Positions 7,451 through 56,158 of a DNA stretch of 64,000 nt are shown piece by piece. Both the position numbers and the translations under genes were made by a program. Origin of the DNA: Psammoneis japonica (taxonomy: Eukaryota); assembly GCA_008632985.1 (NCBI GenBank), contig QPGO01000185.1, positions 62,001 through 126,000 of the forward strand, read 5' to 3'. Each line of letters begins with the position of its first letter. Within the stretch, counting starts at the first letter, position 1. A model generated the notes under the pieces. It worked only from the letters and a program-made list of their open reading frames with translations, was not told the DNA's origin and searched no databases.

Positions 7451-7585
7451 GGCTCATCACTCATGCCGGGAGACTTGACGCTGCGCCTTGACCAGAGTCT
7501 CTTAACTTCTCTATTACCTATTCCTGCCTTCGTCGTCGCAATTCCTACAGTAGTTTAGCTTAAGACTTTTCAGCAATCGTCCGAC

Positions 7586-36544: not shown

Positions 36545-37089
36545 GTCTTTTCAGATTCTTTGCATGGATCGAAGATAGTATGGGGGTACTTGTTCCTTTT
36601 GGGTGAGGGAACAGTAATTGAATGGATTGTATTGCTTGACTGTCTGACCTTGTGAGGGTGTCATTGCGTTTTGATGACAAATGTGGACTTTGACCCCCTC
36701 AGAGCCAGGAATAGATTATGATTATAGGGCCCTAGTGTCGAAGTACCTACAATGCCATTTGTGACATACTTAGATACAAGTACCGTGTATTTAGGAGCAA
36801 GAGCCCTCTTGGTTAGTTTGGTAGACAAAAGTTGTCCCTTGCACAAGCGGGTGGACACGGATCTACGACCAGGTCCAGAGATTGGAGAAAGCCTCGCCAC
36901 TGAAACTTGAAGCAAGAGAATTGAAGCACATCTCTTGGTTCTACTTGGTTCTACAAAGGAATTCGTACCGGCATGTCTCGGGTGAAACTAAAAGTATGAG
37001 TCGTGATGATTGATTGTTGCTTGTCATCGACGTGAAGCAAGGAAAGCTGCCCTCATGAGCGTTTTAGCGTCCGGTTTGCTTGGCTGACA

Positions 37090-37700
37090 CTTCATTTCCG
37101 CATGCTTTCTTGTGGCCGCCCTCCTTCCAGTGTTTCACCCGGGCAGTCTGTTGAACAGTGGATGGTCTTTTTACACCTGGAGCATTTCTGCAATGCATTT
37201 GGCCGATGCCCCAAGCAGTTGCACCCATGAGAGGAAGCCTTCACTTTTTCGTGTTGCGCAGCATGCCTTTGATCCTCAGAGATGGGCCATGACCATTGCT
37301 TCCTTTGGCATGTGGCAGCAATGGTGATCAAGGTCAAACAGAAATGGATCAAAGTCTGTGATCGCCCCCCACGTGTCATTGTGAGCAGCTCAGATGTTGC
37401 TTCTTGGATTCTTTCTGTGCACCACTGGAAACTTGGTGCAACCAAGGCACACTCTTTTTTCTGTTCCCTTGCCATTCTCTGGCAGACAAGGAGTGCCACT
37501 TCTTCTCCCAAGATTTGGACAGAAGAGTCGTTGTTGCTCTCCCAAGAAATTTGTTCTGTGGCTGTCTTGTGTGCCCACTGTTCCAATGAGAAACACAAGT
37601 GGTGTGACAAACCCACTTTGCACACAGGCATGAGCAGAGCCAACAGAACCTCTCAATCATCCATGGTGCAACAACAGCCCAACCAAGATGCCATCACATC
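37090..37700 (-). pseudogene. Decayed MYND zinc-finger gene
   Basis: LQKCSRCKKTIHCSTDC, then after a 1-bp shift RVKHWKEGGHKKACG. Matches MYND consensus C..C....YCS..CQ..HWK..HK..C with Y->H. Confidence 0.75.
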
Positions 37701-40700
37701 CAAGTGGCTCAGACATTTTCCTTTGAAAGGGCAGCTGCCTAGAACCATGCTGTCCTTTGGGATCTTCAAAGATGCATGCTTTGTGATGCCTTGGCCAACC
37801 TGTGAATGGACAGAGAACTTGATCATGGAGTTTGGACAAGTCAGGTGGGACTTTGGCAAACTTCCAACAAACATCTCTTTTGTTCTCACAAAGCTGAATT
37901 TTCAGCACAAAAGACAGACCAAGTGCTGCTTGCATGGTGCTGTCACTGTTGGGGTCCTCCTTTGCTCTGCTTTTCTCCAAGAAAGATGAATGAATTGTTT
38001 TGGTCAGCTTCTTAGCTCTGCTTTCATTGACGCAGATGTGTCATGCCACTTGCTGTCCCAACACATGGGCACTGAAGCAAGCAGATCATGGTTGTCTGCA
38101 AAGTCTACAATGCCCCATTTTGCAACAGCGCTTTTCTCAAATTCACCAGTGTTTGAAACAAAAGACATTGGAACCTTCTTCCAGCATGACCAGTGAGTGC
38201 ATCAAGAGAAAAAAGGCCCACTTTCAGGGCAAGCATGACTCTTCTGCAAGTTCTGGGAGGCACTTCTTTCCCTGTTGTCACTGTGCACTGTGCAAGAAAT
38301 CTCAGCATCAGCAGCATGGGGGTTTGCCCAAAGTGTCAGCAAGCATTCTTGAACCCAGAGTGTCAGCAAGCACTCTTGAAGTCACTCCCAAGCAAGTTTG
38401 ACAGTGGGAAAACCTGCACACATCCCAAAGACACATCCAGTTGCCAAGGCCACATGCCCATGCCATTGCTGCACAAGTCTTGGGATCCCTCCCACCATTT
38501 TTCTTGGAGTTGGCTGGGAAATGTGCCTGCCTTCCTTTGTCTGTTCAAGTTGATGAAAATGACAACTTTGTTTCAGCAATGATGCCAAATGCCAACAGGA
38601 CAGGTTCCCATTGGAGAGCAAACATCATGATGCGACCAGTGCTGGCATCAAAACTTGGAATTTTGTGAAGCCACAGAGCAGCTGAAAAATCAAGGACCCA
38701 GAGGTGTGTTCTGGCAAGCATTGTTGGGAAAAAAAAAGAGCATGGTGTTGGTCATGATGACTTGTTGTGCAACAGCTTTGCCAGTCATGCTTTTGCCATT
38801 GTGTGGCTTTTTGAAAAAGTTGAAAAAACACAGCAACACAAGAAAGATTGCAAAACCTCCCATGCCCCAAGAAAAGCCACACACAGTTGTGGTGATTGCC
38901 TGCTTGCAGTTTTCTGTGCACTTCTTTTTCACAGGGCATGGAGTTGTCACAATTTTTCCCCCTGCCCCAGCTCACAGTTGTCTGACAATGCATGCGCCTG
39001 TTGCTTGCTCTTTTCACCATGGCACTCTCATTGTCATCACCATGGTGGTTGCCACTGGTCTGAACTTGGGCACGTTTGTCAAGAAGCAAGCTTGCTGGCT
39101 GCATCTCCAAAAAAATGCTCTGAGAGGATCATTTGCTGAGGGAGCCATTGTTGTCAAACAACAGTGTGGACATTGGCGCACCAGCATCTGAGACTTTTTT
39201 TGGCAGGGTCACACTTTGCTCATTGCAGCTCTGCCACAGGTGGTGTCAACTGTTTGCAACATGAGAAGGAGAAGCCATTTTGCATCATTTGAAGTTTGTC
39301 CTTTTGCAGCACATCTTTCACATTTGACATTTTCCAATGTGACAACAAGCTTGAAGGATTGCTTCTGGTTGAGAGGAGCAACTTGCTCATGGCACTTTAC
39401 AACTTCAGGCAGGAGCAGGTGGCAGGTGACAGCATCTCATCAGATTGAAGTGCTGCAGCTCTGGGCACAAGTTGTCATGCCAGTTGTCACCAGCATTGTG
39501 TGCATGCTGGTTGGCTCCATCCTAATGTCCCCTTTTTCCCAAGTCTGCAGAGACAGGAAGTTGCCACACAGCAAGACCATTCAAAAGGACAAGAGCTCTG
39601 CACATGCTGCAAGTCTGGTTTTTTAAGTTGCCACTCTGCAAGACCATTTGAAAGGACAACAGTTCTGCACATGATGCCACATGTCTGGTTGGTGCATCAA
39701 TCTGATGCTGAGCATGGGTGTGCAGAGTGGTGGCCAAACTGCAGCTGTCATCTCGTGTGTCTTTTCATTGCCAACTTCTTGAATGACAAACCATCAGAGA
39801 GCAGTGAAGATTGGCTGGCCACGCCACTTTTGAACACACATTCAGCCACAAGCAGACAAGAAAGGGTGTTGTCAACAACAACAGGGTGGCTGTTGGATCT
39901 TGAGTGAGCACCCCACAACACCCAGCAGGAGCACCTGTCCTTTGGCCCATTGACAGAGTTCCAGTGCAACAAAACTTGAACACAAATGAGACAATTTGAT
40001 TTCCCACACCACACCAAGCAGCACACATTGTTTTTTGCCTTCTGAAACAATGCCTTTGCAGCACACTTCCAATTTAGCAAACCAAATGATTGGCTCCAAA
40101 GAGTGACATGAAAGTCAAACAAGGCAAGAGATTGGCAATGATGAAATCTTGCTTGTGAAGTTGCCAAATGAGCCAGCCATGCCAGAAGCCACAGCATGTT
40201 GTCTTCAACACATCCACAGGTTCTTTGCATTTTCCTGCTCTGGTGTTCCATCACACTCCTGCCACTTGCATTGATGTTCTGCCAGCAAGACAGGTCCAGC
40301 TGATTTTGAAAGGAAAAAGATCCCTCTGGTGCAGTGACCCAATTGGTGTCACACTCACCTCTTGCCCCACAGCTGACACCCTGCAACTCAGACACATGCA
40401 AGCTGACACACTGCCCATTGTCAGAACAATCAGCCATGTGCCATCAAACAAGTGTGACATGTCTTGTGCACACTCCACAAAATCCTCCACATGAGTGCAA
40501 CAAAATCTCTCTTTTGTGACTTCACTGTTTGAACCATCAATCAGGTCCACAATCCAACCATTGACCATCTCAGGAGTCAAATCTAAGAACTCCATTCCAC
40601 TGTGGAAACACCCATGCATGGGGTTCACATGGTCAATGTGATGGTGTTGGAAGAGCAACATCAACTTCCCAGCATCACAAATGGTGCCACATGCCCCACA

Positions 40701-41559
40701 TTTGTCCACACAAGGTGGGAAAACTGACACTCAACATCTTGCATGGGTTGCAGATGTTGTTCTTGTCTGGGGCTGGCTGCAACTGATTGCCCATTGATCT
40801 GGTGGTGCACTCATTTCTCATGTGCTCCTCACCATCATCATTGTGTTGGTGTCCGCAACAAGAACACAGTTCGCCTTGCCTCCCAGCTCAACCTCCCATG
40901 ACTTGCCAATGTTCTTTGTGGTCTTGTGTGCTTTGCAAGCATGTTGTTTAATCTCAGATGCTCTCCTTGGATCATTGTGGATGGAGAATGTCAGTGTGGC
41001 AGTGGACACACATGTGTGCACTTCAAGACTTCACACTGGTGCCCATTCATCCACATGGGTCCCACACCACAAAACCAGAGCATCATCTGGTTTCCCTCCA
41101 ATGGCCAATGGGGAGGTGTGTCCACAGAATCTCTCTTCATTTCATCAATGATGTCTCCCACATGAGACAGGTCTGTGACATCACGGCAGAGACATGGGTT
41201 GAAAGTAACCACATCTTGCTGCTTCTGACCCATTTGATTTGATTGATTCTTTCAATGCTCTGCCACAACAATCCTTGTCCACAGCCACTCATCTTTCATC
41301 TCCTGCCAAGTCTGCAAGTTTGTGAAACTTGCTCCAGCAGTTCCATGGCCATCACTGCCCCCCCACATTGTGCAGCACAGCAAACTCATTCTTGTCAAGT
41401 GCATTCATGGCAGATGTTGCTCTGAAGAACAAAATTGTGGCTGGTTGAACAGCATGGTTCATGACCCTTTCTGGGTTGCAGGGATCTTTCATCCATGTGA
41501 ATCAGAACTCTCGTCTGATGTGACAAACAGGAAACACTCTTGTTGCACTTAAAGTGGAC

Positions 41560-44500
41560 AGCCCACAATGGCTCATTTGAACTTTTGAAACTTCTTGCCC
41601 TGCAATGGTTTCTTGTTGGTCAGGAAGTCTCCAACAAGCACACCATTGGTTGGACAATGCTGTGCTCTGAAGTTGCCCTTCTCAACCTGATCAGTGGCAA
41701 AGAAACACCAAATGTTGAGTGCTCTGGACAGCTTTCCAGCACTCCTGCACCCATCAGTTTCCAATGGCACAGCAATTTCATTGTCCTGATGCAGGACATT
41801 CTTGTTCAATGGGATGCCCCTGATGCTCCATGAACAACTTTTTACACTGCGTCGCTGTCCCTGCATCATTGAATCCCACAAGTTCAGCCTCTGTGCTGCT
41901 TCCAGTGTTGAGCTTCTGGCATGTTGACAGAGCCTGCACTGCTCCATTGCCCACTGTCACAACCCCTTCTGTGTGGCTCTTAAAGTCTGTGGGTGAAATT
42001 GTTTGGTGTCTGGTTTTAACCTTGAGACAATGGACTGGCTTTCCCCAGTCCCCACTGGTGGGATCACTGACTCATGTGCACAATGCAGTGACAGTGGGGT
42101 GCACATGTGTGCAGCCTCTCTTGGACACAAACAGTGCCTTGGCCACCAACACATGGAATGTCTTCACTTTGGTTGTCAGTCGGCAATCTTGTGACACTGG
42201 CATCAAACAGGTTCTCTCCAGCTGGCATCATGGCAGCATCCATGCTCTTGATCTCTTCCAGGGATTGACAAATCATCCTGTGAAAGCAGCTGGCAATGTT
42301 GACCTTCACCCTGCCCTTGTGGTGGAGGTCCATGTGGTCACACCAAGGCAGCCATGCTTCTTCTCTTGCTCACCACAGCTCCCATGCATCTTGTTCTTTG
42401 GCCAGCTTGGAAATTTGTCATTTGTGCTTGGGTTCATGTGGCTGGAGATGGCATCATGGCAGCATCCATGCTGCTCTTGATGTCTTCTGGGAACTGACAA
42501 ATCATCCTGTGAATGCAGTTGGTCATGTCAACCTTCACCTTGCCCTTGTGGCAGAGGTCCAGGGTCACTCCAAGACAGCCATGCTTCTTCCCTTGTTCAC
42601 CATGGCTCCCATGCATCTTGTGGGCTGGCTTGGAAATTTGTCATTTGCTGCTTTTGGGTTCACGTGGCTGGCCAAGAACAGGTCACCCACATGGAATTGC
42701 ACACTGGTGTGTTGCTTCCCATTGATGGTTTGATTGCATGGATTGCATGGGTTGAACTCAAATACTTGATCTTCTCCAATTCTTTGCAAAATTGCACATG
42801 CTGCAGCAGAGCTGTGACCAACATGCCATGCACAGCTCCCAACAAGAGAACTCTTTTTCCCTTCTCTGTGACCAGATGTGGTCTGCACTGGTTGGGATCA
42901 ATGGTTGCAGGCATGTCAACCAACTCTCCTGCAATCTTCATCATGATCTGGTTTTTGCCTTTCTGAGGCTCCAGAGTCAGAATCTGCACAAGTGTGCTGG
43001 GCACATTGGCACTCATTGCATTGTGATCTTTCACATTGATGATGGCTGTCACTGGCATTCCTTCTGACAATGCTGTTGGGCTGGCTGACTCATCCTTGTC
43101 TGGCCATTCTCCAGTCAGCAACAATCTGCCCTTTGATGCAACTGTCTTGTTTCTCCATTGTGAACACCAAGGCAGCCATGGTCTTGTTGGTCCTCTCAGC
43201 CAAAGTCACATGTCCTTGACAAATGCTGGTGCAAAGCAGCACACTTGGTTGCGCACTTGTTTGACATCTTTTTTTGGGTGTTGCACCCCTTCTAGCCAAA
43301 TGCTTTTAAGCCTTCATGCAGCAAGTGTTGTTGGGCAAAGGAAAACCCCTTCCCTGGTTGGAGTTGGCCATTGATCTTGCACATGAATTGTGCCACTGCC
43401 ATTGCTGTTTCTGCATTGCCCTTGACATCATCCTCTGGATTGGGACTCATGTTCATTCAGAAATGGCAACAGCACTTGAGTCTGTTTTGCCATTGTTCTG
43501 CTGCTGCTTTGATGATGTCTGCCACTCCTGAGAACCAAACTTTCTTTTCTGTGTGCTTGTGTGATTTTGCATTTGAGGGTGCACCACTCCTTGTTTCTGC
43601 CAGGTGTGGCTGTTGCCTCTTCCTTCAACATTTCTCCTTCCTGTCTTCCATCTTCTTGAAATTCATTGTCATCTTCAAACTCTTTGTCATCTTTGTCTTC
43701 TGACTCTTTGTTGTCTTCATCTCCTTCATTGTTTTTTCTTTGACTTCTTGGTTCTTGTGCTGCTCACCAGTGCTGGATCTTTCATTGGCTGGGATCTTGT
43801 TTCTTGCTCCATGTTGTGTGACTCTGCTTTGTTGTCTTCTTAATCTTCACATTCTGACTCAGACACGTGGCCAGTGTTGTTGTTGTGCTTGTTTTTATTT
43901 TCATCTTTGTTTTCATTCTTTTTGGCATCACTTTCACTTTTGTCATTGTCCACTCCTGCAGCCCATTCAGCATCATGCAGATTGTCTCTGCATTTGCCCA
44001 TGAATTTGAGCTCTCCATGATGCCTTGTGATGTGGCCATTTTCTAGACAGCTCATGTGTGCGTGTCAGTCAAGGGTGTGGCAGTGCACTTGCAGGAACTC
44101 AAAAGCTTGCCTGTGTGCAAGTTCACAGTGCAGTGGCCACCACCCTTGGGCAAATCAAAACCTGGTTGCAGGCAGACACTGTCAATGCCATGCACATCCA
44201 TGTTGTTCACCAGGTTTTTCTCAACATGAGAGAATGCAAATTCCCCGAATGTGAACTCAAAGTGTTTGTTGCAATGAAGGTTTCTTCATTGCATGACAGT
44301 GTGTGGACTGCAAGAGTTGGAAATTCCCTCCTTCTGTGATTGCACATTCAGCATGACAGTGTTCTTGGTCACAGCATGCTTGTGTGTCAACTTTGGTGCC
44401 ATCTTGCATGGCAGACAGTGTGCAGTGGCTCAAGTTTGCTTCTTGATGGTCTGCATGCTCCTCTCAACTTTGGAGACATGATGGCCACTTGTGTTTGTGG

Positions 44501-46500
44501 ACATCAGCTCTAGACTCATGCCATCTGTGACTTCCACAGCATTGCTTTGAACTCAGTGGGATCACAATCAACAAAATTGATCTTGAACAAAGCTGTGCAG
44601 CACTGTCTGAGAATCATGTCCAGCACATCTTAAACATCAGCATGCTTTTTGGACTTCAGTCTCACACTTGATCAACATTTGACAGTCTTCTTGTCTGCTG
44701 CATGGAGCAGCTCAACACCACATGCTTCCATGATGTCAATGCAAAGGACTGTGCCTTCTCTCTGCTTCTCATGTGTCTTGGGTGGTGTGGCTGCAATGTC
44801 GCTCCTCTCATGGGAGAGATGTGCAGATTTGGCTTTGCTTTTTAATGTGTCCATTGGTGGGCCCCAAATGGCCACCATCCTGTCCACATCCTTGGGCATG
44901 ATGGACAAGTTTTTCACCCAGTTTGAATGTAAAATGGCTCAAAATCCCTCACATTGAGCATTCCAGCCTCATGTTGCAATCTGAGTGCTTGCTCAGCATT
45001 TGCCACCTCCCTCTTAGTGCAGCCTGTGCTGGAGTTCTGCTCCGCTGTTGGAGCCACAGTTCCAGATGCACACCATTGGGCTTCTTGTTCTTGTTCTTCT
45101 TTTGACAGCACATTTGCACACAACTTGCTTTCTTGGAGATCTTTTGCATGGTTGAAGAACTTCTTCTTGCTTGGTGCAAAAGCACATGGCCCAATGTCAC
45201 TCACTTTGAACATCGCAACTTGCGCGCCAGTTTTCTTGTCCAACAGTTGGAGCTTGTCTGCTGCGTTCTGCAATCTGAGCTTTGCACACCCTGTCCCCTG
45301 TCCAGGCATGGCACAGGCTTCATCTAAAGTGTCCATTCCTGAGTTTGTGGACAGATCAATCTTGATCTTTGTGGGTCGCACATTGCGCACTGGTCTCTGG
45401 CTTGCTGCCATGCTGAGGGCAGAACCATCCTCAAGGATGATTTCATCCAGTTTGATGCCTGCTGCATTGGCTTGGTTTGTGCTTGTCTCTGGTCTCTCAT
45501 TTGCCAGTTGCAACCCACGCAATGCAGTGCTCCTGCTTTGGACAGAATGGGTTGATCAGTTTGATCTAGCGCTGTCAACACTCATGTTGTCACTGTCTGC
45601 TGACAAATGGTCATTGCCTTGTGTCTGTGCATGACTTTGTCCCCTGATGTCCAGCTTCTTTCTGGTGTTCTTGAACCAATTTTCAAATGCAATGTCACTT
45701 CAATGCTTGCAGTCTGGGGACCTGTGGTTTTGCTCACCACAGCAGCGACAGTGTCATCTTGGCTGCCCTTCTGGGCATGGCTCTGGTCTCTTGGGTTGTT
45801 GGACTTTTCACTCTTGTGTTCTCATTGTTGCCATTCCTGTTCTTGTTGTTCATGCATTTGTTGGTCCTCTTGTTGTGTCATTTGTGAGGATTGTTGCTGT
45901 TTGGATGGTCAGATGGCACATCATCCATTGCCTTGTCTGGGGTCTTTGGACAGGCGTCCTTGCCCGGGCTGCAGTGTTCTCTTTGAACTGCTTGGTCTCA
46001 TGGTTGTTGTGGCACATTCATGCAACTCTGCTTTGTGCTGGCACCCCAGCTCCTTGTCTTTTTGCTGCTTCTCTGACAGGTTGACTTGGTGTGTCACACT
46101 GAAGCTGGCTGGCAGTGTTGTTGTCTTGAACATGTTTAAGTTGGGTCTCTTGGAAGCAAAATCCTTGCACATTTCATGTCTTCTAAAGATCTCACCAGGT
46201 GCACACCTTTTGTGCACTCTTTCTGCATGTGACAGATGACATTCTTCTTGACATCTTTGCACTTTGCATTGTGAGCATTGCCATTCAGTGACAAAGGATG
46301 GAGCTTCATCTCAGGCTGAAAGCTCTTCTCAAAGTCAGTTTTCTTTGCAGAGCAAAGAGATCTTGCAACTCTTGTCACCTCTGCCATCATGACCACAACC
46401 TCAGCCTTGATCTCATCCACTTGTTCCATGCTGCCTCCTCCACTGGCACCACTCATTGTGCTGGGTTCCTGCATTGGTCAACTGCATGAAAGTCAGTGTC
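41560..46500 (-). mobile_element. Degenerate Ty1/copia LTR retrotransposon (diatom CoDi-like), gag-PR-IN-RT-RNaseH order
   Basis: PR-like IILEDGS..TNSG (~45.4 kb). Pre-integrase/IN segment IWGP..TLKSK, VLCIDIM (~44.7-44.9 kb). RT motifs ASPT, MKIAGELVD, EFNPCNPC, QFHVGDL, KHGCLGVTLD (~42.5-43.1 kb). RNase H motifs SSTEAELVG, LHQDN, RALNIWCFF, DFLT.KPLQG (~41.6-41.9 kb). LTRs not confidently located. Confidence 0.9.
42223..42671 (+). repeat. Diverged ~226-bp tandem duplication inside copia RT
   Basis: Copies at 42223-42445 and 42449-42671 both start tggcatcatggcagcatccatg and end gtggctgg. Confidence 0.92.
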
Positions 46501-48379
46501 TGCAAGCACTGAACACAGTGCTGTTGACTCTTTGGAGTGAGTGTTGAGCCAGCAAGTCAACGTCACCAAAGGGGGTCCCACTGGGCCACCTGTGCCACTC
46601 AATGCACTTGCCTTGGTTGCTTGCAGCAGCTGTGGGTTGCTCAGAAGCTGTCAAACATGCTCAAAACTTGCAGTGCAACAGACACCCAGTGGTGCCAAAT
46701 GATGCCAAATCATGCAAACCAAATGATTCACTCCAAAGAGCAAGGCAAAACTAAAGGGTGAGAGGAAATTGGTGCCAATGAAATCTCACTTATCAAGAGT
46801 CACCAAATGAGCCATGTCAGGACCACAGTGTCTTTTTCTGTGCATCCAGGTTCTTTGCATGTCCCATGACCCAGATGTTCCAACAGCCTTGGGGTGTGGC
46901 TTGACCTTTGAAGGAGGAAATTGACTGAAAAGCCATTGACAGCCAACAAGAGGTGGCTTCCAATGGAGCACTTGTGGACCAGCCAGCCAGTGTCTTCATC
47001 CAGGATTGTGCCAACAACAGATGGCAGGAGGAACACAGTGATCAATTGGAGCTGGGCCTTGGCTGCCAACCCGGTGCAGGCTGGAAGTGTGCATTCTTCT
47101 CAGCATCTGAGAGGTGGGCTCAGTGTTCCTGCCACTGTCCCAGGCTGTGATGGGGCATCAACATCCAGAGTCTTGAAAAGGCTTTTTGGGTTTGCCAACA
47201 CTGGGCAAGCATGCACTGCCCCCCCCTCCCCATGGTGACAATCAGAGCAGCATGGAGGGGTGCTCTCTGTGACTGGTGGCTGGAGTCATGTGCCCCCCCC
47301 ACTGCTGCACAGCTGTGGAGCAAAGCCACAGCTGTGGAGCAAAGATTGGGGTCACCCATGCAGGGCCCAGCAAGCAAGAGACACCTGGAAACACTGTGTT
47401 TTGTTCTTGTTTCATTGACTGCAATGAATCCACAGAAAAGTCATCTTGCACAGAGTTGGGCACAGCGAGTTGAGTTGACAACACAACTTGAGTGTTGCCA
47501 CTTGATGGCCAACTCTGGAAAAACACTTTCCAGCTGTTTGCCAGCACTGGTCAACAGGCAGCTGTTCAAACAACAAACAGCGCAACTCTTGAGCTGTGAC
47601 ACATGATGCAGATTCGTTGCCACATCGTCAATCGTTGATGTCCACAATGTCTCGAGGTGATGACAGTTGACTTTTGGTGCATGAAATTGAAGCACTGAAC
47701 ATCTGCAGCAGCCCAGGCAGGGCGTGCCCTCTCTAACTCTCTGCTCTCTACTGCAGCTAGTCTAGAGAGCCCCGCTGCAGCCACCGGGTAGCAGAAGATG
47801 GCAGTGAGGACACTGGATGCACTCCTCCGCTTGTGCGCTTGGCCGAATTGTTGGCAAAGCATCATTCACGGTTCTCCAGTTCACTGTGCTCACATCTCGC
47901 AACTCGCAACTCGCAAGTGACATGGGCCATGGGAGCCCAATTTGCAATCAACACTTCTTTCTTCTTGTCCTCTGCTGGTGGTCATCCGCACAGATGCCAT
48001 GATGCCATGTGTGGCATCTCTGGCCTGCGGCAATCCTGGCATTGATTCTACGAGATGCCATGTGAGATGCCACATTTGTTTGTGACGCAGTCATGTAGAA
48101 CTTGCACCACTCCAACCGGTCCATGCCTGAAAGGTGAAAGTTGCGAGATGTGAGACACTGTTGTCATGGGTTGCAACTGTTGGAAGTGGTGCACAATGTG
48201 TGTCTGCAGCAGCTGGTCTTTTCTTGATGGTGTTGAGGATGCATGGCAACAGCTGACCCTGCGGGAGATGGAAGTGAATCTGGTGATGCCATGCAGCAAA
48301 CGCCAAGTCATGTTGTGGTCGCAATGAATCAGGCCAGCACCATGCAGCAAACACTGTCACACAGTCACACCACATGCTG

Positions 48380-50870
48380 TGCATCACTCTTAAGTTCATT
48401 GGGAAATTGACCCTTCTTGCACCCAGGTTGGCAGTGGATGCGTGGGTTGCTGCTTGTCCTGTGCTGTCATTGCAGGTCAACCCTTGGCCCCGATTCTTTT
48501 GACACAGCGGCGTGTCACACTCCGCACAGCACCATGATGTTGTGGTGCAATTGTTGTGCTTCAATTGTTGTGCTTCCGACACATCCAACAATTTTGTTGA
48601 TGCGGTTGACCAACATTGTGCCCGCTCTGAAGTTGCTTCTCTGTTGGAGGTCTCGTTGCATCGCCAGCATCATCAGTTGTTCGCTTGAGTGTTCCCACTG
48701 CCGGCTTGGATGGTGGAGTTCGAGGGAGACGGTCCCGGTCAGACCTGCGCTTGAGGCCTTTGCAGAGCATGTCTGAGAATTTTCTAGCCGTCATGGCTCC
48801 CCCATGAGTTGTTTGGTCATGGTGCCGATGGAGCCAGTGAAGATCCACAACTGACATTCCAACAGCAGTGACAAGAAGCCGGAACCAGCAACAACGTGTT
48901 GGCCATGAATTCTCCAGACCAAGAATGTCTTGTCTTTGTTTGTTGTGTTGGTCAATGATTGGCAGACACTCGTGTAGAAATTCGCAAAGTTTTGGGCACG
49001 GCAGTTCCTTCGATGCTGCTTCTCCATGCTCATTCTCGAAGTTCGACACACAAGGCACATCCGACGGAGAGGTTAGTCCACACATTGAAATGAAGTGTGC
49101 AACGCTTGATTCGCTCCACGCGTGACCCATGGCAATCAGCTGCACTCCAGCGATTGTCGTCGAGAACGTGACCCACTTTCCAGCCAAACGATTGCTGTGT
49201 CGTGCCATCATGACTCTGCGGATGGCAGCCCTTGGAAAGAAAGAAGTGTCATTCTTCACAACGAAGGTCGAGTGAACTTTGAACCGTTTTGACACCTCGA
49301 CGCAACTCACAACACTGCCGAACCATGCATCGCCTCCGACCCAACCGCCTTCCTTCACTCCTGCATGCTCCACTTGCCGCAGTGTTTCAGCCACATGCGC
49401 AGGAATGTTTGATCCATCAGGTAGACTGGATTGCTCACCGTGGCACTTCTTCATTTGCTGGTGTTCTGGCAGCTGAACCGGGTCGTTGCACACTAGAATG
49501 CCAGCAGTGCATTCGGCCCCATTTCGAAACATCGTTCCAAGAGGCACAGGCTTGCGGGGCTCACAGGTGCAATTCGGGAGTCCACCCAACTTGGATGTCT
49601 TGGGTCTCCAGCCAGACATAGACTCATCTAATGCCAGCAAGATGAGGGATTTGACAAGTTGTCGTCTCCTGTCATTGAATCCTTTCAGCGCCGGCAGAAA
49701 CACTTCCCATGGCATGTCGCGTTTGTCACGAAACCAGCATTGTGGGTCGGCCCAACAAAATGCAGCTGCGCTTTCGAAACACTTGAAAGTTTTCACGTCA
49801 ACATGTTGCCCAAAGTCGGGGTAGAACGAGCGACCCTCTGAAGCTCCCGACTTCCACAGATTTTCAACTCCACATTCAATTGTAGAAGCAGCTGCAATGA
49901 GCACTGTATGACACTGCTTCACTGTCCAATCTGGATCTTCAGCATCCGGATCATGGAAAGTGCGGTCAAGCTGAAGGCATGTAGCATGATGGCTTGCTCT
50001 CCTGTCACTCAGGTGTCTGTCCAAAATCTTTCCGTGACCAGTGACATCCGGGAGCACGTGATCAAAGAAATTCTCTTGAATGCTCTCATTGGCGAAGTCC
50101 ACGTCCTTTAATTCAACAGGTGGGTCCGGCACTGTAAGTGGAGACTCCATTACGTACTCCGTCTCGCCGTGCATCTTCCACACAACCTTCTTTTCAACGC
50201 ATCGCGGATCGGCTCCATGCCTCGTTTCAAAGATGGATTTTTGAGTGACTTCTGCATCTTTAAGCTCACAGAATTCATCCAATGATTGAAGTGCCAAAGT
50301 CTTCCTTGATTTTTTTGCTGCAGGTTCATTATCGTCGCCATCTTTCGAGCGGCTCCTACGTTCCTGTTCTGACATGGGGTTTTCCTCTTCCCAGTCCTGC
50401 ACGACGGTGATCTTGTTGGCGGTGACATGACGAACTCGTTCATCCGATTCAGGAAGGGTGTCAAAATCAACATCCCAACCTACTTTCGAATTTCCGCCCT
50501 TGACGGTTCCAAAAAAAAGAAAGTCGTTGGGGGCGTCGCGAGGCATTGCTTGTCGTTGCACCTCACTGAGAATGTGGCAGAGGTCCGTTCGTTTGACTTT
50601 CGCTCGACGGCCGATTTTCATTCGCTTTTTTGAACCTGTCTTCCTTTTCGTTCGAGATGTTGTCAGGGGCGGTTTCTGTGATCCAGAATTATTGCTTCTG
50701 CTGCTCCCTTGGTCAGATGCTTGAGGAGGCTGCACGGGAGTGCCTTCAACATCATTTGCAGGAGTCTCAGCAGCAGCAGCATTTAGTTGCAGAGCCAGGT
50801 CCATTTGAGCTCTTTCAACCACTCCAGTGGACGCTTGAGGTGTTGATCCATGTTCACCAATGGATTGCAT
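48380..50870 (-). mobile_element. piggyBac-like DDD transposase (PGBD/DDE_Tnp_1_7), inactivated
   Basis: 769-aa ORF 50870-48561 with LDESM, EPRKPVPLG, GDAWFGSV, IDQHNKQRQ..LE..WPT..CWFRL. The Cys-rich domain (CWMCRK..WCCAECDTPLC) is split by a frameshift. TIRs and TTAA TSD not identified. Confidence 0.9.
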
Positions 50871-51117
50871 GGGGGGGAGACACTCTCGGAGGCAGCGACG
50901 GCGGTCGCTTCTTGTCCGCTCATGGTGCCGGCACGCATTTGGCGTCTCGGAGACGCTATTTTTCAGTCAACTTCAGACGACTTCCAATGCAACTTCCGAC
51001 CGAAGACACCTTATGTAATGCATATGCCCCTGTTCTCTGAGTTGTTTAACGATTTTCTGTCAACGGAAAAAGACTTGGGGAGCACATGAAGCATTGTTCT
51101 GGTGTTTTGGATGGGGA

Positions 51118-51440
51118 TACTACAAATTGCAAAACAATTGCGCGATACACGTGCCCGAAGGTCGAATATCGTTGCCCGAAGCAACATTCTTCCTTCGCGC
51201 AGAATGTCCATTCTACATAGAATATGGTATTGAAAATCTCATTGTAGTCGCATGAGTCGTTGAAGTAACTTCATCAATGACCTCTGTGGTACTGTGCTAC
51301 GTGATCTACACAAATCGGACATTCTCGAATGCTGGTATATTTTCTACGGTCTCTACGTGCGCGAAGCTCTAATTTCGTGCCCGAAGCAACAATCACCCTT
51401 CGGGCACGTGTATCGCGCAATTGTTCAGCAATTCGTAGTA
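51118..51440. mobile_element. MITE with 44-bp terminal inverted repeats (terminal TA included, probably a TA target-site duplication, Tc1/mariner-like)
   Basis: 51118-51161 tactacaaattgcaaaacaattgcgcgatacacgtgcccgaagg matches the reverse complement of 51397-51440 with 3 mismatches. Internal direct repeat tgcccgaagcaaca. Confidence 0.85.
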
Positions 51441-53049: not shown

Positions 53050-55900
53050 TGCCGGTGCGATCAATGCCCGTAGATTTTGTACTCATTTTGCCCCAGGAAC
53101 AGAAAGACCTTCACGAGCATCTGTGATCACATTTTGGAGTTTCTACAACGTCATCTCACAAACTTTGCCCTGAAGACCGGCACAGCAAGGCACAACCAGC
53201 TGCCACAAAGCCTTTTCATTCATCTCGTTTGTGTGATCCGATCACTGTTGGGGATGAGGGCCAGCCCTTTTCTCAAACAAGGAACAAGAAGCAAGTGTGC
53301 TCAGTCTTCCAAAACTGGTTGGCACTGATCCTTGCTGCAAGCATGGTGCTCTTGTGTTTGCAAGATGTGAGTGCTCAAACAGTCATGAGGGCAAACTTTG
53401 GTGTGCAATGGATGTGGCAGCTTGTTGGGCAAGTGCTGCTGTGGAGGAGAGTTTGGGGCTGTTGTGGAGATGCTGGTGCCGACTCTGCCTCTACAGGCCA
53501 CATGTCCAGACCAGCTCATTGGCCAGGCAAATGATTGCAGGTCTTGCTGAAAACAGCTGCAGTGCTGTCATGAGGGATTTGACAAAATCTTGCGCCAGTG
53601 GTGGTGGCAAAAATTGTGATGCCACTGCGGGCATCTTGAACCCCTGCCATTGCCAGAGCACATTTGATCTCACATGTTGCTTGTCAACCCTGGTCTGTTT
53701 GTTGACAGGCACCCAAGCACTTTCTTGATGGGTTTGATTGTGTGCAAGTTGTTGACAAGAAGCACATGTGATTTGGTCATTTGTGATGCTGTGTCATGTG
53801 CCAGATGTGCCGACTCTGCACCTGCCAACAATTTGGTGGCCGCTGGACATTTGGCACCCACTGAGTTGAAAAGGAAACGTGAAGACAAGTCAAAAAGGCA
53901 ACTGAGTTGTGGTGGTGTGAGGCAGTGCTGGTGCAGGAGATTGATGTAGAAGCAACTGAGAGCAAGGTAATGAGGGAGCTGCCATAAAAACTGTTTTTTG
54001 AGAAAGGCCCCAGATTTTTCTATGCACAGAGCAATGACTTTGGTCAAAAGGAGGCAGATCTTTTGAGATGCTGCAATGAAGTGACTGCAATGGCTCTGCC
54101 CTGACCATGTTGTCAATTTGAAGAGAGTTGGGCTGGAGTGAAAATGCAGAACAAGTTTGCTCACAAAATCCTTGCTTGGCATGTGGCTCAACAAAAAAGC
54201 ACTTGAGCAATGTTGACATGATCATGTTGATGCCACCACTCCCACAGAATGGCAAAATTTGCTGAAATTAGCTTCTGTTGTTCTTTTGTCTGCTCTGGAT
54301 TGACCCCAGAGATGCGCAATGTCATGTCTAAAAACCAAAAAGTGGGCAGCCCTTGCAGCAAGTTTTGACAGATTGCGTGGCACATTTTTGGTGTGCAGGG
54401 CAGGCAAAACATGGCCGCCAGCAACCGCAAGGATTTGGCAGCATGATGTGAAATGGAAAGTTGCCACAAAAGTGGGTTTTACATTGATGTTGTTGTTTGT
54501 CTTGGCATTGAAAAAAAAGATCAGCTCCCCTTCATCACACCTTTCACCACAAGTTGTGAATCCTGCACAATCTGCTTGACTCAAACATTTGAAAGTGTTG
54601 GCTGGATTTTGACCCTGCACCCCTCTGCCAGCCAGAGACAGAAACACCCCCAAGAGATGCAAGCACCATTGGTCTCCCACTCTCTTTGAGAATGGCACAT
54701 GTGAGAAAGAAAGAGGTGTGTGCATTGTTCATGGTGCCGTGCATTTGAAAATGGTGGAGCTGGCTTTTGCCAAAGGCAGCACCTTTCTCACAGGAGAGAA
54801 AGCAGCTGTGCAGGACAAATTTTTTCATGGCTCTGTGTGACCCCCAGCACACCCCTCTGCTGTTTCTTGAAGCCCCAAAAGATGTCAGGACCTCTCCACT
54901 GGCTGGTGTGATGTCAGCTGGTTTTTTTGGAAATGCACTCTGGTGAAAAACAGGGCTTTTGTGATCACACACAGCACCACATGGGATTGGGCAGAGCATG
55001 GCTGCTGCTGCCATGTGTTGATGCTTTGCAGTTAGCTGGCACAACAACAATTCAACCAAGTTCCACACAAGCAGCAACATGGTTGCTTGCTGTCCCAACA
55101 GAGAATGGTTTCCTGTGCACTGTTGGCCAATCCTCCTCAAGCACTGCTGGCTTCACAAATTTTTCACAACATTCAAGAAGTGCATTGCCAAGACAAGCAG
55201 CACAATGATTTGCTGCTGGAGTGTGAGGTGTGTGTGTTTGTTCTAATTTCTGTCTTGTTGTGCTGGTTGTGGTGCCAGAAATCAGCTGCAACAGAGACAC
55301 CTGCCAGCTTGCAGAGCGCCCAAGCTGCACATGTGAGAATTTTTTTCATGCTGCCCCCAAACTTGTGATGTGGTGAAGAGTGTCTTGTGTGCTGCCCAAG
55401 CTGTGTTTGCAAGGATGTGAGGCATGAACTTGCCAAGCTTCCATGCTGGTTTGCTGGCAATTTTACAAAAAAGCAGCGGCAATGAGCGCCACCCAGCAGA
55501 GCTGCAAAAACCCCCCATGAGCCACAGAGGGGGGCTTGCTTTGAGCACTATTTTCAGCCTTCCCTTCCCACATTTCATCTCAGAACTCCTGTTGCCACAA
55601 AGAAGCAACATAAAAAATGCACAGCACTTGAAAAGGCGGGAGTGCCAAAATGCTCCCCTGAAGTGCTGCATTTTTTTGTTCTCCTCAACCAGCACCACCA
55701 TGCTGGAGGAAGGGTTGAGAGTCTCTCAACTCACCTCATGGGCCGGCTCTTTTCAAGTCTCTTTTCAACTCTCTTTTCAACTCACCTCACAATCCAGGTA
55801 GAAGCCACACAAGCCTTTGGTGCAGAAAGACACCTGTCGAATGTCATCACAGTTCGAACGGCGCGAACGGAGATGCAAGGATTGCATGATGTGTCACGCA
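53050..55900. repeat. TpA/CpG-depleted hypermutated block 3 (unclassified relic)
   Basis: Strong TA and CG depletion with TG/CA excess and Tyr-poor ORFs in all frames. Sits between two normal genes. Confidence 0.8.
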
Positions 55901-56158
55901 AGCACCAGAGACACGATGGACAGACGGTCGATCTGGTCGAACGAATCCATCCAGCTAGTTACCATAGCTACCGGTAGCACAGAGGACAAAGTTTGAAAGT
56001 TATTGCACACCAACACACCATGGCCCATGGGCTTCCCGTTTAGCATTCTTATTCAAAATAATGTTGATCGAAAACGGGCCATACTCATCGTTAATATTGT
56101 TTCTCTGAAAGCCAGATCTTGATGTCGGGTTTTGGAAGCAGCGAAACGAATCGATCAA

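What the first reader, a model, noticed from the sequence alone, without database searches (positions are those of the whole stretch)
37080..47750. Candidate RIP-like genome-defence process that erases TpA (A:T->G:C) as well as CpG in repeats
Seen: over ~10 kb both TA and CG are nearly absent and replaced by TG/CA, while flanking genes a few hundred bp away are normal. Against familiar diatom copia motifs, conserved Tyr codons became His or Cys (GYP->GHP, LYQDN->LHQDN, YCPT->HCPT, NPYDPC->NPCNPC, HDYLG->HGCLG, IYGML->VHGML). Arg codons became Trp (IRYFF->IWCFF). Established: CpG->TpG/CpA follows from 5mC deamination (diatoms methylate TE CpGs via DNMT5), and fungal RIP makes C->T changes that CREATE TpA. 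Neither explains TA->TG/CA. Inference: a second, region-targeted mutator converts A->G within TpA. Candidates are a DNA adenine deaminase, or error-prone Y-family (pol eta-like, WA-biased) repair synthesis triggered by T:G mismatches in methylated DNA. I do not know of a description of this in diatoms.
Basis: partly seen in the sequence, partly recalled or inferred. Interest (0 to 1): 0.93.

Follow-up and report, generated by a model that had tools for sequence, protein, structure and literature searches.

The report
TpA-erasing hypermutation of diatom transposons
Dead transposons in this diatom genome have had nearly every TA and, more slowly, every CG rewritten to TG or CA, so a TpA-specific DNA mutator so far reported only in one unrelated alga probably also works in diatoms.

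Summary
Three tracts (about 4.2-7.5 kb, 37.0-51.0 kb, 53.1-56.0 kb) have TA O/E 0.03-0.15. Their cores have CG O/E 0.07-0.11 and TG/CA about 1.9, with total YpR steps and GC unchanged. Genes a few hundred bases away are normal. Short-read-like contigs of a public run match the sequence exactly.

The tracts hold a copia relic and a PiggyBac relic. Conserved Tyr became His or Cys (1 of 14 and 0 of 8 kept). In the copia relic, CGN Arg codons became CAA, TGC, TGA, CAT and TGG.

TA loss and CG loss are separable. The PiggyBac relic and four unrelated metagenomic PiggyBac elements lost TA but kept CG. Survivors and products point to a strand motif T-A-Y to T-G-Y.

Best reading: a TpA-specific A:T-to-G:C hypermutator aimed at long mobile DNA, with ordinary methyl-CpG decay on top.

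The same TpA process was measured in Bigelowiella natans in a 2026 preprint. My searches found no diatom report. So this is a new member of a just-described kind. The enzyme is unknown. A pol-eta or mismatch-triggered route is disfavoured.

The parts
37000..51010 (.). Main TA-depleted zone, a TE island. TA density is normal up to 36,995 and again from 51,012.
   Evidence: TA positions and 250-bp counts. TA O/E is 0.045 in 37305-47533 and 0.15 in 47534-50966.
37260..47580 (.). CG-depleted core nested inside the TA-depleted zone. CG recovers gradually to the right of 47,580.
   Evidence: CG positions. CG O/E is 0.067 in the core against 0.68 in 47534-50966. 250-bp counts are.
41555..45441 (-). 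Frameshifted Ty1/copia-type polyprotein relic in which both TA and CG are erased.
   Evidence: tblastn of 7 public copia proteins; residues 250-1447 of P0318 map to 45441-41555. Conserved Tyr: 0 of 8 kept (4 Cys, 3 His). Conserved Arg: 4 of 15 kept, all AGA. Eight of the 11 changed Arg codons are CAA x3, TGC x2, TGA, CAT, TGG.
42220..42671 (.). Tandem duplication (2 x about 226 bp, 84% identical) inside the copia relic.
   Evidence: 5 of the 6 adjacent double differences between the copies are TG versus CA, as expected if an ancestral TA or CG resolved independently in each copy. Overall 19 transitions and 7 transversions.
48564..50966 (-). PiggyBac-type transposase relic: an 801-codon frame that is still open and ends in TGA. 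TA is erased but CG is largely kept.
   Evidence: 156 relatives at E<=1e-5, the best at 51% identity, many carrying PF13843. Tyr is 2 of 801 residues against 2.2-4.6% in 32 relatives. Of 14 conserved-Tyr columns, 1 is kept, 8 are His and 3 are Cys. Arg is kept in 20 of 24 columns. The homology span is 48385-50900.
4215..7502 (.). Tract 1: TA-depleted, with a CG-depleted core at about 4,308-7,138. Unclassified sequence.
   Evidence: In 4344-7093, TA O/E is 0.026 and CG O/E 0.099. No Pfam or homologue hits.
53145..55955 (.). Tract 3: TA-depleted, with a CG-depleted core at about 53,240-55,837. Unclassified sequence.
   Evidence: In 53245-55511, TA O/E is 0.072 and CG O/E 0.107. No Pfam hits.
51118..51440 (.). 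Unaffected control: a MITE-like 323-bp element with 44-nt terminal inverted repeats, high copy number and normal TA and CG.
   Evidence: Inverted repeat, 93% complementary. Summed word depth is about 1,700-2,200 against about 60 for single-copy flanks. It holds 21 TA and 25 CG in 323 bp.

Best explanation
The tracts are islands of dead mobile elements in a diatom genome: a copia relic, a PiggyBac relic and unclassified sequence. Two separate context-specific transition processes have rewritten them.

(1) A fast, locally targeted DNA hypermutation converts TpA to TpG or CpA (A:T to G:C). Its strand motif is close to 5'-T-A-Y-3' going to T-G-Y. It stops within about 100-250 bp of the element edges. 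This is the same kind of process that was measured directly in mutation-accumulation lines of Bigelowiella natans.

(2) A slower loss of CpG to TpG/CpA occurs in the tract cores, as expected from deamination of 5-methylcytosine in methylated diatom TEs.

Shown here: the dinucleotide pattern, its mutational origin, the separability of the two losses, the extended motif, and recurrence in unrelated elements.

Inferred only: the chemistry (adenine deamination by a TadA/ADAT2-like or other deaminase-fold enzyme acting on DNA), the targeting cue (chromatin state or element length), and that CpG loss is methylation-driven.
For: Pattern and statistics. Total YpR steps are 235-249 per kb in the tracts against 236 per kb elsewhere, so TA and CG were converted into TG/CA.

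Specificity: only TA (plus CG in the cores) falls and only CA/TG rises. AA/TT is 1.16-1.30 against 1.15.

Mutational origin:
- PiggyBac relic: conserved Tyr kept in 1 of 14 columns (8 His, 3 Cys). Other residue classes are kept at 67-100%, except Ile at 36% and Met at 38%.
- Copia relic: Tyr kept in 0 of 8 columns. The surviving Arg are all AGA, and 8 of the 11 changed are CGN-decay codons.
- Tandem duplicate: 5 TG-versus-CA double differences.
- Paralogous contigs differ from the locus mainly by transitions (277 of 355). The 24 differences listed inside 41.8-50.6 kb include 9 CG versus TG/CA, 1 TG versus TA, and 2 CA-versus-TG doubles.

A DNA-level process: PiggyBac is a cut-and-paste element (established knowledge), and both strands are hit.

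Separability:
- The TA-poor zones extend beyond the CG-poor zones at 5 of 6 tract edges.
- The PiggyBac segment has TA O/E 0.15 but CG O/E 0.68, and its GC has risen to 0.514.
- 6 of 80 metagenomic PiggyBac loci (4 distinct elements) have TA O/E 0.11-0.23 with CG 0.73-0.84 and sharp element-sized boundaries. The other 74 have TA O/E 0.37-0.83.
- Public proteins P0094 and P0042 have His or Cys at 13 and 12 of 15 conserved-Tyr columns, with Arg and Trp kept.

Motif:
- Surviving TAs are YTAR in 31 of 47 core-tract sites (66%), against 16% of flank TAs. Pooled with the PiggyBac segment, YTAR is 42 of 77 against 281 of 1757 in flanks (Fisher p 6e-14). RTAY is 2% of core survivors against 30% in flanks.
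- The same holds in metagenomic tracts: 53 of 98 against 156 of 718 (p 1e-10).
- Products of A edited in the T-A-Y context exceed those of the T-A-R context by 6.4-18.4 per kb in 5 erased tracts, against 2.1 +/- 7.3 in 54 intact loci (Mann-Whitney p 6e-4).
- The largest product gains are TGC/GCA at +16.8 per kb and TGT/ACA at +9.5. TGA is +0.2 and TGG +2.7.
- ApT falls and GpC rises in the cores, as TAT to TGT and TAC to TGC predict.

Sequence is real: contigs of run X1 (word depth about 60) match 6 stretches of the tract with 0 differences.

Precedent: in B. natans, 20 of 20 and 210 of 211 de novo mutations in two integrated viral regions are A>G or T>C. The text states that all of these GC-biased mutations fall on TpA, at about 6e-7 per site per generation. 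TE-type Pfams are enriched among TpA-depleted CDS (abstract and passages read).
Against: - No per-generation rate, methylation map or enzyme could be examined. No whole genome is held, so genome-wide targeting and comparison with intact copies of the same families are missing.
- Ancestral states are inferred from relatives at only 20-58% identity. The 7 copia references are not independent.
- The product-based motif analysis uses intact loci as a stand-in for the ancestors. These are somewhat AT-richer, and one expectation fails: the ATGT/ACAT gain is +0.8 where about +5 was expected.
- His at two of the cited copia Tyr positions is also common among public fragments.
- Run X1 may be the very sample from which the window was assembled, so it excludes assembly error but is not independent biology.
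- Tracts 1 and 3 and 37.0-41.5 kb could not be shown to be TEs.
- Surviving CGs also show a context bias (RCGY 44% against 22%), which plain spontaneous deamination does not obviously predict.
Confidence: 0.8

Rival explanations
1. The same A:T-to-G:C change at TpA, but made on the thymine. A TET/JBP-type oxidation of T in R-T-A to 5-hydroxymethyl- or 5-formyl-uracil would mispair with G and give T to C. No adenine deaminase would be involved.
For: The sequence data cannot tell which base of the pair is attacked. The motif T-A-Y on one strand is R-T-A on the other. From recall, not from a call: 5-hydroxymethyluracil in dinoflagellate DNA is enriched at TpA, and 5-formyluracil is mutagenic.
Against: No evidence here for modified thymine in diatoms. 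The B. natans authors favour deamination and name an ADAT2-like candidate (section 11 read). That too rests only on prediction.
Confidence: 0.15
2. One machinery erases both palindromic YpR steps. A single enzyme or repair pathway acts on TA and CG alike within silenced chromatin.
For: In the three cores both dinucleotides are lost to a similar degree (O/E 0.03-0.11) and share nearly the same borders.
Against: TA-only erasure occurs in the PiggyBac relic (CG O/E 0.68, Arg kept 20 of 24) and in 4 distinct metagenomic elements (CG 0.73-0.84). TA zones overhang CG zones. The context biases of survivors are opposite: YTAR for TA and RCGY for CG. B. natans shows the TpA process alone; the word CpG does not occur in that text (listing).
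Confidence: 0.07
3. Error-prone pol-eta-type (WA-motif) patch synthesis, triggered by T:G mismatches from 5mC deamination.
For: It would put A-to-G changes at TA inside methylated DNA. The cores lose both dinucleotides.
Against: TA is erased where CG is intact, so no T:G trigger is needed. AA/TT is not depleted, although WA includes AA. The changes are almost purely transitions to TG/CA, with YpR totals conserved. There is a strong 3' pyrimidine preference. That this last feature is not a known pol-eta trait is from recall.
Confidence: 0.03
4. RNA-level A-to-I editing of TE transcripts or double-stranded RNA (ADAR- or TAD-type), fixed in DNA by reverse transcription.
For: A 5' U preference is typical of A-to-I editing enzymes (stated in the preprint's discussion). 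The copia relic does replicate through RNA.
Against: The PiggyBac relics are DNA transposons with no RNA intermediate. Both strands are hit about equally: TG 1240 against CA 1172 in the core, with no strand runs. Erasure covers whole nested islands with shared borders.
Confidence: 0.03
5. Native composition or selection. These element families avoid TA and CG, as many RNA viruses avoid UpA and CpG. Alternatively, the tract is an assembly or base-calling artefact.
For: The 801-codon frame is open. UpA and CpG avoidance is known in viruses (paper titles).
Against: Conserved Tyr and CGN-Arg positions are replaced by exactly the transition products. The copia frame is broken. An open frame is expected anyway, because TA to TG/CA cannot create a stop codon (codon logic). 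O/E values of 0.03-0.07 are far beyond known avoidance. Accurate-read contigs match exactly, and independent metagenome assemblies show the same signature.
Confidence: 0.02

Closest known systems
TpA-restricted hypermutation of integrated viral DNA in Bigelowiella natans (Mettrop et al., bioRxiv 10.64898/2026.01.13.699255, 2026)
   Same: Only TpA is hit, giving TpG or CpA depending on strand. The bias is towards GC. The process is confined to foreign or mobile DNA beside a normal genome. The long-term footprint is TpA depletion with CpA+TpG enrichment in clustered windows, and TE-type domains are enriched among depleted CDS.
   Different: - The host is a diatom (stramenopile), not a rhizarian.
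- The targets here are transposon relics, not giant-virus or virophage inserts.
- Erasure is near complete (O/E 0.03-0.15 against a Rho of 0.45 for their NCLDV region).
- It is overlaid by CpG loss, which that text never mentions.
- A 3' pyrimidine preference (T-A-Y) is derived here. The passages I searched give no flanking-base motif. Their Table S2 and other supplements could not be opened and may hold it.
- No rate was measured here.
Fungal repeat-induced point mutation (RIP)
   Same: A DNA-level, transition-only, locally confined mutational inactivation of mobile elements with sharp borders.
   Different: RIP makes C-to-T changes, mainly at CpA, and so creates TpA and lowers GC. Here TpA is destroyed and GC rises where only this process acted (0.514 against 0.478). 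Dependence on duplication and on a sexual phase could not be tested. A high-copy 323-bp element is untouched.
Decay of methylated CpG by 5-methylcytosine deamination (diatom TEs are CpG-methylated; Hoguin et al. 2023, PMC9998398, seen as a search listing and abstract only)
   Same: CG goes to TG/CA, restricted to TE cores. Arg CGN codons became TGN or CAN.
   Different: The depletion is far deeper (O/E 0.07-0.11) than is usual for methylated genomes (recall). Surviving CGs are biased to RCGY. Methylation itself was not observed here.
Deaminase-based restriction in animals (APOBEC3 on retroviral cDNA; ADAR hyperediting of dsRNA)
   Same: Context-specific deamination-type hypermutation used against mobile or viral nucleic acid. 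A 5' U/T neighbour is preferred, as for ADAR (preprint discussion).
   Different: The target here is resident chromosomal DNA, including DNA transposons. The base change is A:T to G:C, not C to U. The 3' neighbour preferred is a pyrimidine. ADARs are metazoan proteins (recall).
TadA/ADAT2-ADAT3 tRNA adenosine deaminases, and stramenopile-specific deaminase-fold proteins (Iyer et al. 2011, PMC3239186)
   Same: The T-A-Y motif resembles U33-A34 followed by C in the anticodon loop edited by bacterial TadA (recall). ADAT2 is the B. natans candidate. Iyer et al. list stramenopile-restricted deaminases fused to SAM and 1-22 tudor domains, and a Rossmann-fused CDD/CDA branch for which they consider DNA-mutagenising activity (passages read).
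   Different: No such gene lies in this window and no genome could be searched. No natural chromosomal DNA adenine deaminase of this kind has been demonstrated in algae.

Membership tests
TpA-specific hypermutation of foreign/mobile DNA (B. natans type) | Changes are A>G/T>C and confined to TpA | tested here: met
   Only TA falls and only TG/CA rises in TA-only tracts, and AA/TT, AC/GT, AG/CT and GA/TC stay near background. Tyr TAY became CAY or TGY. This is an indirect footprint, not de novo mutations.
TpA-specific hypermutation of foreign/mobile DNA (B. natans type) | Local restriction to foreign or mobile sequence beside a normally mutating genome | tested here: met
   Borders lie within about 100-250 bp and genes 0.5-1 kb away are normal. 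There are element-sized TA-free tracts in L046, L069 and L080.
TpA-specific hypermutation of foreign/mobile DNA (B. natans type) | Mutation rate orders of magnitude above the genomic baseline, active in only some lineages | not testable with these tools
   This needs mutation-accumulation lines or time series. There is only an indirect hint: about 85% of TAs are gone from a 2.4-kb frame that has no frameshift or stop and keeps CG O/E 0.68.
TpA-specific hypermutation of foreign/mobile DNA (B. natans type) | Same enzyme or homologous machinery | not testable with these tools
   The enzyme is unknown in both organisms, and no genome is held for this window.
Fungal RIP | C-to-T at CpA, creating TpA and lowering GC | tested here: not met
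   TpA is destroyed (O/E 0.03-0.15). GC is unchanged or raised.
Fungal RIP | Triggered by sequence duplication above a length threshold | tested here: inconclusive
   Repeated segments (depth 100-625) and segments at single-copy depth (59-70) are equally erased. A 323-bp element at depth of about 2,000 is untouched. That is compatible with a length threshold but does not prove one.
Methyl-CpG deamination decay | CG to TG/CA in the affected DNA | tested here: met
   CG O/E is 0.07-0.11 with the YpR total conserved. Eight of the 11 changed conserved-Arg codons are CAA, TGC, TGA, CAT and TGG, and the 4 survivors are AGA.
Methyl-CpG deamination decay | The DNA is 5mC-methylated at CpG | not testable with these tools
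   No methylation data were available. Methylation is inferred from published diatom TE methylation (PMC9998398, abstract only).
Pol-eta / WA-motif error-prone repair | Both TA and AA are hit, with transversions, downstream of T:G or U:G mismatches | tested here: not met
   AA/TT is 1.16-1.30 against 1.15. TA is erased where CG is intact.
ADAR-type RNA hyperediting fixed by retrotransposition | Requires an RNA intermediate, so retroelements only | tested here: not met
   PiggyBac DNA-transposon relics carry the signature.
PiggyBac transposase (PF13843, DDE_Tnp_1_7), for the 801-codon frame | Significant similarity to family members over the transposase core | tested here: met
   E = 2e-238 and 51% identity to P0001 over 92% of the query. 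Many hits carry PF13843. The Pfam model itself did not score on the relic at E<=0.001. Catalytic residues were not checked.
Ty1/copia LTR retrotransposon, for 41,555-45,441 (minus strand) | Collinear similarity to copia polyproteins | tested here: met
   P0318 residues 250-1447 map collinearly in several frames at 20-58% identity. LTRs were not identified. Pfam gave no hit on the read-through frames.

The most novel reading that the evidence does not exclude
Diatoms and chlorarachniophytes share an old, possibly SAR-wide genome-defence enzyme. It would be a chromatin- or length-guided DNA adenine deaminase (ADAT2/TadA-like, or one of the stramenopile tudor-fused deaminases) that edits T-A-Y to T-G-Y on both strands of long mobile or viral DNA. 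It would act independently of cytosine methylation and far faster than background mutation. It would wipe out Tyr codons, TATA-like and TTAA/TA target sites and all TAA/TAG stops, while leaving 'ghost' open reading frames.
Probability: 0.35. Interest if true: 0.9.

Novelty: new member of a known kind. Interest (0 to 1): 0.72.

Why it matters
A natural, sequence-specific A:T-to-G:C mutator acting on chromosomal DNA is known from one 2026 preprint in one alga, and its enzyme is unidentified.

- **Wider distribution:** the same footprint, near saturation, occurs in a diatom and in unrelated environmental PiggyBac elements. The process may therefore be widespread in a major phytoplankton group, and comparative genomics could be used to find the enzyme.
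- **A testable specificity:** the derived T-A-Y preference can be checked against the B. natans mutation list and against candidate deaminases.
- **Relation to methylation:** the TA-only tracts show the process does not depend on CpG decay.
- **An annotation hazard:** TA erasure cannot create stop codons and removes TAA and TAG. Dead elements therefore keep long open frames that are being deposited as predicted proteins without Tyr (for example P0094 and P0042).
- **Possible application:** a natural DNA adenine editor would interest base-editing technology.

Tried and rejected
- **Whole genome:** none is held. No genome-wide scan, no search for deaminases, and no alignment to intact copies of the same families were possible.
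- **Pfam on the tracts:** 133 ORFs of 75 aa or more gave only 4 sub-threshold hits (DUF4803, CxC1, PHD_NSD, TMEM219), treated as noise. Six read-through frames of 37.0-48.4 kb gave 0 families. Twelve frames of tracts 1 and 3 gave 0 families.
- **Tract 1's 323-aa frame:** no homologue. It is probably a chance ORF, since TA-free DNA has only TGA stops.
- **Self-comparison:** the three tracts are not similar to each other at DNA level. The TE proteins hit nothing outside 41-51 kb.
- **Protein atlas:** on calreticulin it gave no useful taxon.
- **Strand clustering of TG versus CA (runs test):** z = 0.3, -2.2 and -2.6 in the tracts against -1.8 and -1.3 in the flanks. No clear processive strand runs.
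- **Expression:** no RNA holder is listed for the tract. Run X2, which looks like RNA because its contigs skip GT..AG introns, has no cover in 37-50 kb. I draw no conclusion from this.
- **Earlier notes of this scan:** nothing for this genome or for these words.
- **Literature searches for a diatom report:**
  - 'diatom + transposable elements + TpA + CpG': 2 papers, neither relevant.
  - 'diatom + repeat-induced point mutation + transposable elements': 8 papers hold the terms, 6 listed, none relevant by title or abstract.
  - 'TpA + Phaeodactylum': 130 papers hold the terms. The 15 listed were terephthalate or unrelated.
  - 'TpA dinucleotides/hypermutation/integrated/algae': only the B. natans preprint.
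  - 'TpA/A-to-G/hypermutation/genome defense/adenine deaminase': nothing relevant.
  - The single 'TpA' in PMC4504042 is the word 'Tpase'.
- **Supplements:** the bioRxiv supplements (Table S2, the mutated sites) could not be opened. The T-A-Y prediction could not be checked there.

Full report
**Observation.** A 1-kb scan shows three tracts in which both TA and CG almost vanish, while TG and CA nearly double and GC stays at about 0.47-0.48.

| Segment | TA O/E | CG O/E | TG / CA O/E |
|---|---|---|---|
| Rest of window | 0.59 | 0.99 | 1.12 / 1.11 |
| 4344-7093 | 0.026 | 0.099 | 1.88 / 1.81 |
| 37305-47533 | 0.045 | 0.067 | 1.83 / 1.99 |
| 53245-55511 | 0.072 | 0.107 | 1.94 / 1.80 |

At the background rate, the main core should hold 411 TA and 580 CG. 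It holds 31 and 39 (log10 Poisson P of -131 and -190). All 29 core-tract 500-bp windows have 0-4 TA. All 84 background windows have 10-45. The sum of all four YpR steps is conserved at 235-249 per kb against 236, so TA and CG were turned into TG/CA by transitions. After strand symmetrisation, only TA (and CG) fall and only CA/TG rises. AA/TT stays at 1.16-1.30 against 1.15.

**Is the sequence real?** One public run (X1) holds 95% of the sampled words of 40-46 kb. Its contigs have a word depth of about 60 on single-copy flanks, so the reads are accurate. Six contig pieces (701-1,060 bp) match the tract with zero differences and a seventh (1,273 bp) with three. X1 may be the sample behind the assembly, so this excludes a consensus or base-calling error but is not independent biology. 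Independent support comes from other assemblies, described below.

**Organism and setting.** The flanking ORFs are ordinary, intron-poor eukaryotic genes: EXS, ALG6/8, thioredoxin-PUB, RRM, an epimerase and calreticulin. Every named relative of the ALG6/8 protein is a diatom at 44-52% identity. The best hit, at 64%, is unnamed. So this is a diatom that is not close to the named ones.

**What the tracts are.**
- On the minus strand, 45,441-41,555 is collinear with copia polyproteins in several frames.
- An 801-codon open frame at 48,564-50,966 (minus) is a PiggyBac-type transposase. It has 156 relatives at E<=1e-5, the best at 51% identity, and many carry PF13843. Named hits come from Seminavis and Thalassiosira.
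- The stretch 37.0-41.5 kb and tracts 1 and 3 could not be classified.
- Summed read depth is 100-625 over most of 38-47 kb, but 59-70 at 37-38 kb and 47.0-47.6 kb.

**The composition is mutational.**
- In an alignment with 32 PiggyBac relatives, I counted columns with at least 20 residues and at least 60% agreement. The window's copy keeps Tyr in 1 of 14 conserved-Tyr columns (8 His, 3 Cys, 1 Trp, 1 Phe).
- It keeps the other residue classes at 67-100%, except Ile at 36% (3 of 11 became Met, as ATA to ATG predicts) and Met at 38%.
- Overall it has 2 Tyr in 801 residues, against 2.2-4.6% in the relatives.
- In the copia relic I counted columns with at least 3 of 7 references agreeing. Tyr is kept in 0 of 8 columns (TGY x4, CAT x3).
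- Arg is kept in 4 of 15 columns, all of them AGA. Eight of the other 11 are CAA x3, TGC x2, TGA, CAT and TGG, which are the products of CGN decay.
- The two copies of an internal tandem duplication (42,220-42,671) differ by 19 transitions and 7 transversions. Five of their 6 adjacent double differences are TG against CA. That is the mark of an ancestral TA or CG resolving independently in each copy.
- Paralogous contigs differ from the locus by 277 transitions and 78 transversions.
- The 24 differences listed inside 41.8-50.6 kb include 9 of CG against TG/CA, 1 of TG against TA, and 2 CA-against-TG doubles.

**Two separable processes.**
- TA-poor zones are wider than CG-poor zones at five of the six tract edges; the left edge of tract 1 is the exception.

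| Tract | TA-poor zone | CG-poor zone |
|---|---|---|
| 1 | 4,215-7,502 | 4,308-7,138 |
| 2 | 37,000-51,010 | 37,260-47,580 |
| 3 | 53,145-55,955 | 53,240-55,837 |

- The PiggyBac segment has TA O/E 0.15 but CG O/E 0.68. Its GC has risen to 0.514, and Arg is kept in 20 of 24 columns.
- Its frame is still open. By codon logic, TA to TG/CA can never create a stop codon, whereas CGA to TGA can.
- The same state recurs elsewhere. Among the best 120 public PiggyBac hits, P0094 and P0042 have 0.26% and 0.46% Tyr. They carry His or Cys at 13 and 12 of 15 conserved-Tyr columns, and keep Arg and Trp.
- Of 204 confirmed metagenomic relatives, the best 80 were fetched. Six of these have TA O/E 0.11-0.23 inside the transposase, with CG at 0.73-0.84. 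The other 74 have TA O/E 0.37-0.83.
- The six represent four distinct elements, because L045, L046 and L047 are 99.7% identical. None resembles the window at DNA level.
- The depletion is element-sized with sharp edges. In L046, positions 5,501-10,500 have 0-9 TA per 500 bp, against 7-38 outside.
- PiggyBac moves as DNA, so the change is made in DNA and not through edited RNA.

**Extended motif.**
- Surviving TAs in the window's cores are YTAR in 31 of 47 cases (66%), against 16% of 1,757 flank TAs. RTAY is 2% against 30%. With the PiggyBac segment pooled in, YTAR is 42 of 77 (Fisher p 6e-14). The TG/CA sites in the tracts are 23% Y..R, so new TAs arising from them would not give this bias.
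- The four metagenomic tracts show the same: YTAR in 53 of 98 against 156 of 718 (p 1e-10), and RTAY in 6 of 98 against 188 of 718 (p 2e-6).
- YTAR is the only class in which neither strand reads T-A-Y (equivalently, R-T-A).
- Products separate the two positions. I chose 24 of the 74 non-erased loci as a baseline, avoiding near-duplicates and short matches. Against it, the 5 TA-only tracts gain products of an A edited in the Y-T-A-Y context (43.3 to 48.5-59.0 per kb). They do not gain those of the R-T-A-R context (41.0 to 38.8-44.1).
- The difference between the two classes is 6.4-18.4 per kb, against 2.1 +/- 7.3 in 54 of the 74 loci, with 20 near-duplicates or short matches dropped (Mann-Whitney p 6e-4). 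It is 17-34 in the window's cores against 0.2-7.0 in the flanks.
- By 3-mer, the gains are TGC/GCA +16.8, TGT/ACA +9.5, TGG/CCA +2.7 and TGA/TCA +0.2 per kb.
- By 4-mer, GTGC (z 5.3) and GTGT (z 3.3) lead and ATGN gains little.
- The fall of ApT (0.73-0.84) and the rise of GpC (1.18-1.43) in the cores fit TAT to TGT and TAC to TGC.
- Limits: the baseline loci are AT-richer than the likely ancestors, and one expectation fails (ATAT products are +0.8 where about +5 was expected). The +1 pyrimidine preference is therefore well supported. The -2 preference (G favoured, A disfavoured) is only suggested.

**Targeting.**
- The borders are sharp, and genes 0.5-1 kb away are normal.
- A MITE-like 323-bp element with 44-nt inverted termini lies about 100 bp beyond the tract. 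Its summed depth is about 1,700-2,200, yet it has 21 TA and 25 CG.
- Segments at single-copy depth are as erased as repeated ones.
- Copy number alone is therefore not the cue. Element length, chromatin state or small RNAs remain open.
- TG and CA outcomes show no clear strand runs.

**Comparison with what is known.**
- The closest match is a 2026 preprint on Bigelowiella natans. I read the abstract, sections 11 and 12, and searched passages.
- In mutation-accumulation lines, two integrated viral regions mutate at about 6e-7 per site per generation, roughly 1000 times the baseline. Of their de novo mutations, 20 of 20 and 210 of 211 are A>G or T>C. The text states that all of these GC-biased mutations fall on TpA.
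- The authors propose a DNA adenine deaminase and name an ADAT2-like candidate.
- That text never mentions diatoms or CpG (listing). The passages I searched give no flanking-base motif.
- Fungal RIP runs the other way (C to T at CpA, creating TpA).
- CpG loss fits 5mC deamination in methylated diatom TEs (PMC9998398, abstract only), but methylation was not observed here.
- The pol-eta and RNA-editing routes are disfavoured, as set out under the rival explanations.
- Iyer et al. 2011 (PMC3239186, passages read) list stramenopile-restricted deaminases fused to SAM and tudor domains. They also list a Rossmann-fused CDD/CDA branch for which they consider DNA-mutagenising activity. These are leads, not evidence.
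- The resemblance of T-A-Y to the U33-A34-C35 site of bacterial TadA is from recall.

**Novelty and verdict.** Five literature searches found no report of TpA erasure in diatoms. The only description of the kind is the B. natans preprint (first found). I therefore file this as a new member of a just-described kind. It adds three things: a second, distant host lineage; the relation to CpG decay (separable, with the TpA process wider and apparently faster); and a candidate T-A-Y specificity shared by unrelated elements.

**What remains open.** The enzyme, the targeting cue, the rate, whether methylation accounts for the CpG loss, and the nature of the unclassified tracts all remain open.

Noticed in passing
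window 51118-51440: MITE-like element of 323 bp with 44-nt terminal inverted repeats (93% complementary). Summed read depth is about 30 times that of single-copy flanks. TA (21) and CG (25) are normal although it lies about 100 bp from the erased tract. RNA-like contigs of run X2 also cover it.
   Followed up: partly
window core tracts (4344-7093, 37305-47533, 53245-55511): Surviving CGs are biased to RCGY (30 of 68, 44%, against 22% of 2,485 flank CGs), and YCGR is depleted (15% against 25%). This context effect on CpG loss is the opposite of the one for TA and is unexplained.
   Followed up: partly
L046:5501-10500, L069:3001-5500, L080:2001-4500, L040:715-2754: Metagenomic contigs unrelated to the window at DNA level carry PiggyBac elements with TA erased but CG kept, with sharp borders. 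L069 also has a second TA-poor 500-bp bin at 6501-7000. The host organisms are unknown.
   Followed up: partly
P0094, P0042 (public predicted proteins); window 48564-50966 and 4495-5463: TA-erased DNA has no TAA or TAG, so dead elements keep long open frames. Public databases hold Tyr-free 'ghost' transposases of 775-861 aa. The 323-aa frame in tract 1 has no homologue and is probably such a chance ORF.
   Followed up: yes
window 39751-40443 (minus): Weak, sub-threshold Pfam hit to CxC1, the cysteine cluster of KDZ transposases (E 0.0014, 19 bits against a cut-off of 26.9). It may be spurious, because Tyr-to-Cys and Arg-to-Cys changes inflate the cysteine content.
   Followed up: no
window 35987-36077 and 52366-52456: Contigs of run X2 skip these intervals (89 bases; the second is listed with GT..AG ends). 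This suggests short introns in the RRM gene and the epimerase gene, and that X2 is an RNA data set.
   Followed up: no
P0283, P0298, P0299, P0332 (public copia fragments): 4 of 146 public copia RNase H-tail fragments have His or Cys at all three conserved Tyr positions and 0-1.7% Tyr overall. They may be further erased copies in other data sets. The query itself carries His or Cys there, which biases the retrieval.
   Followed up: partly
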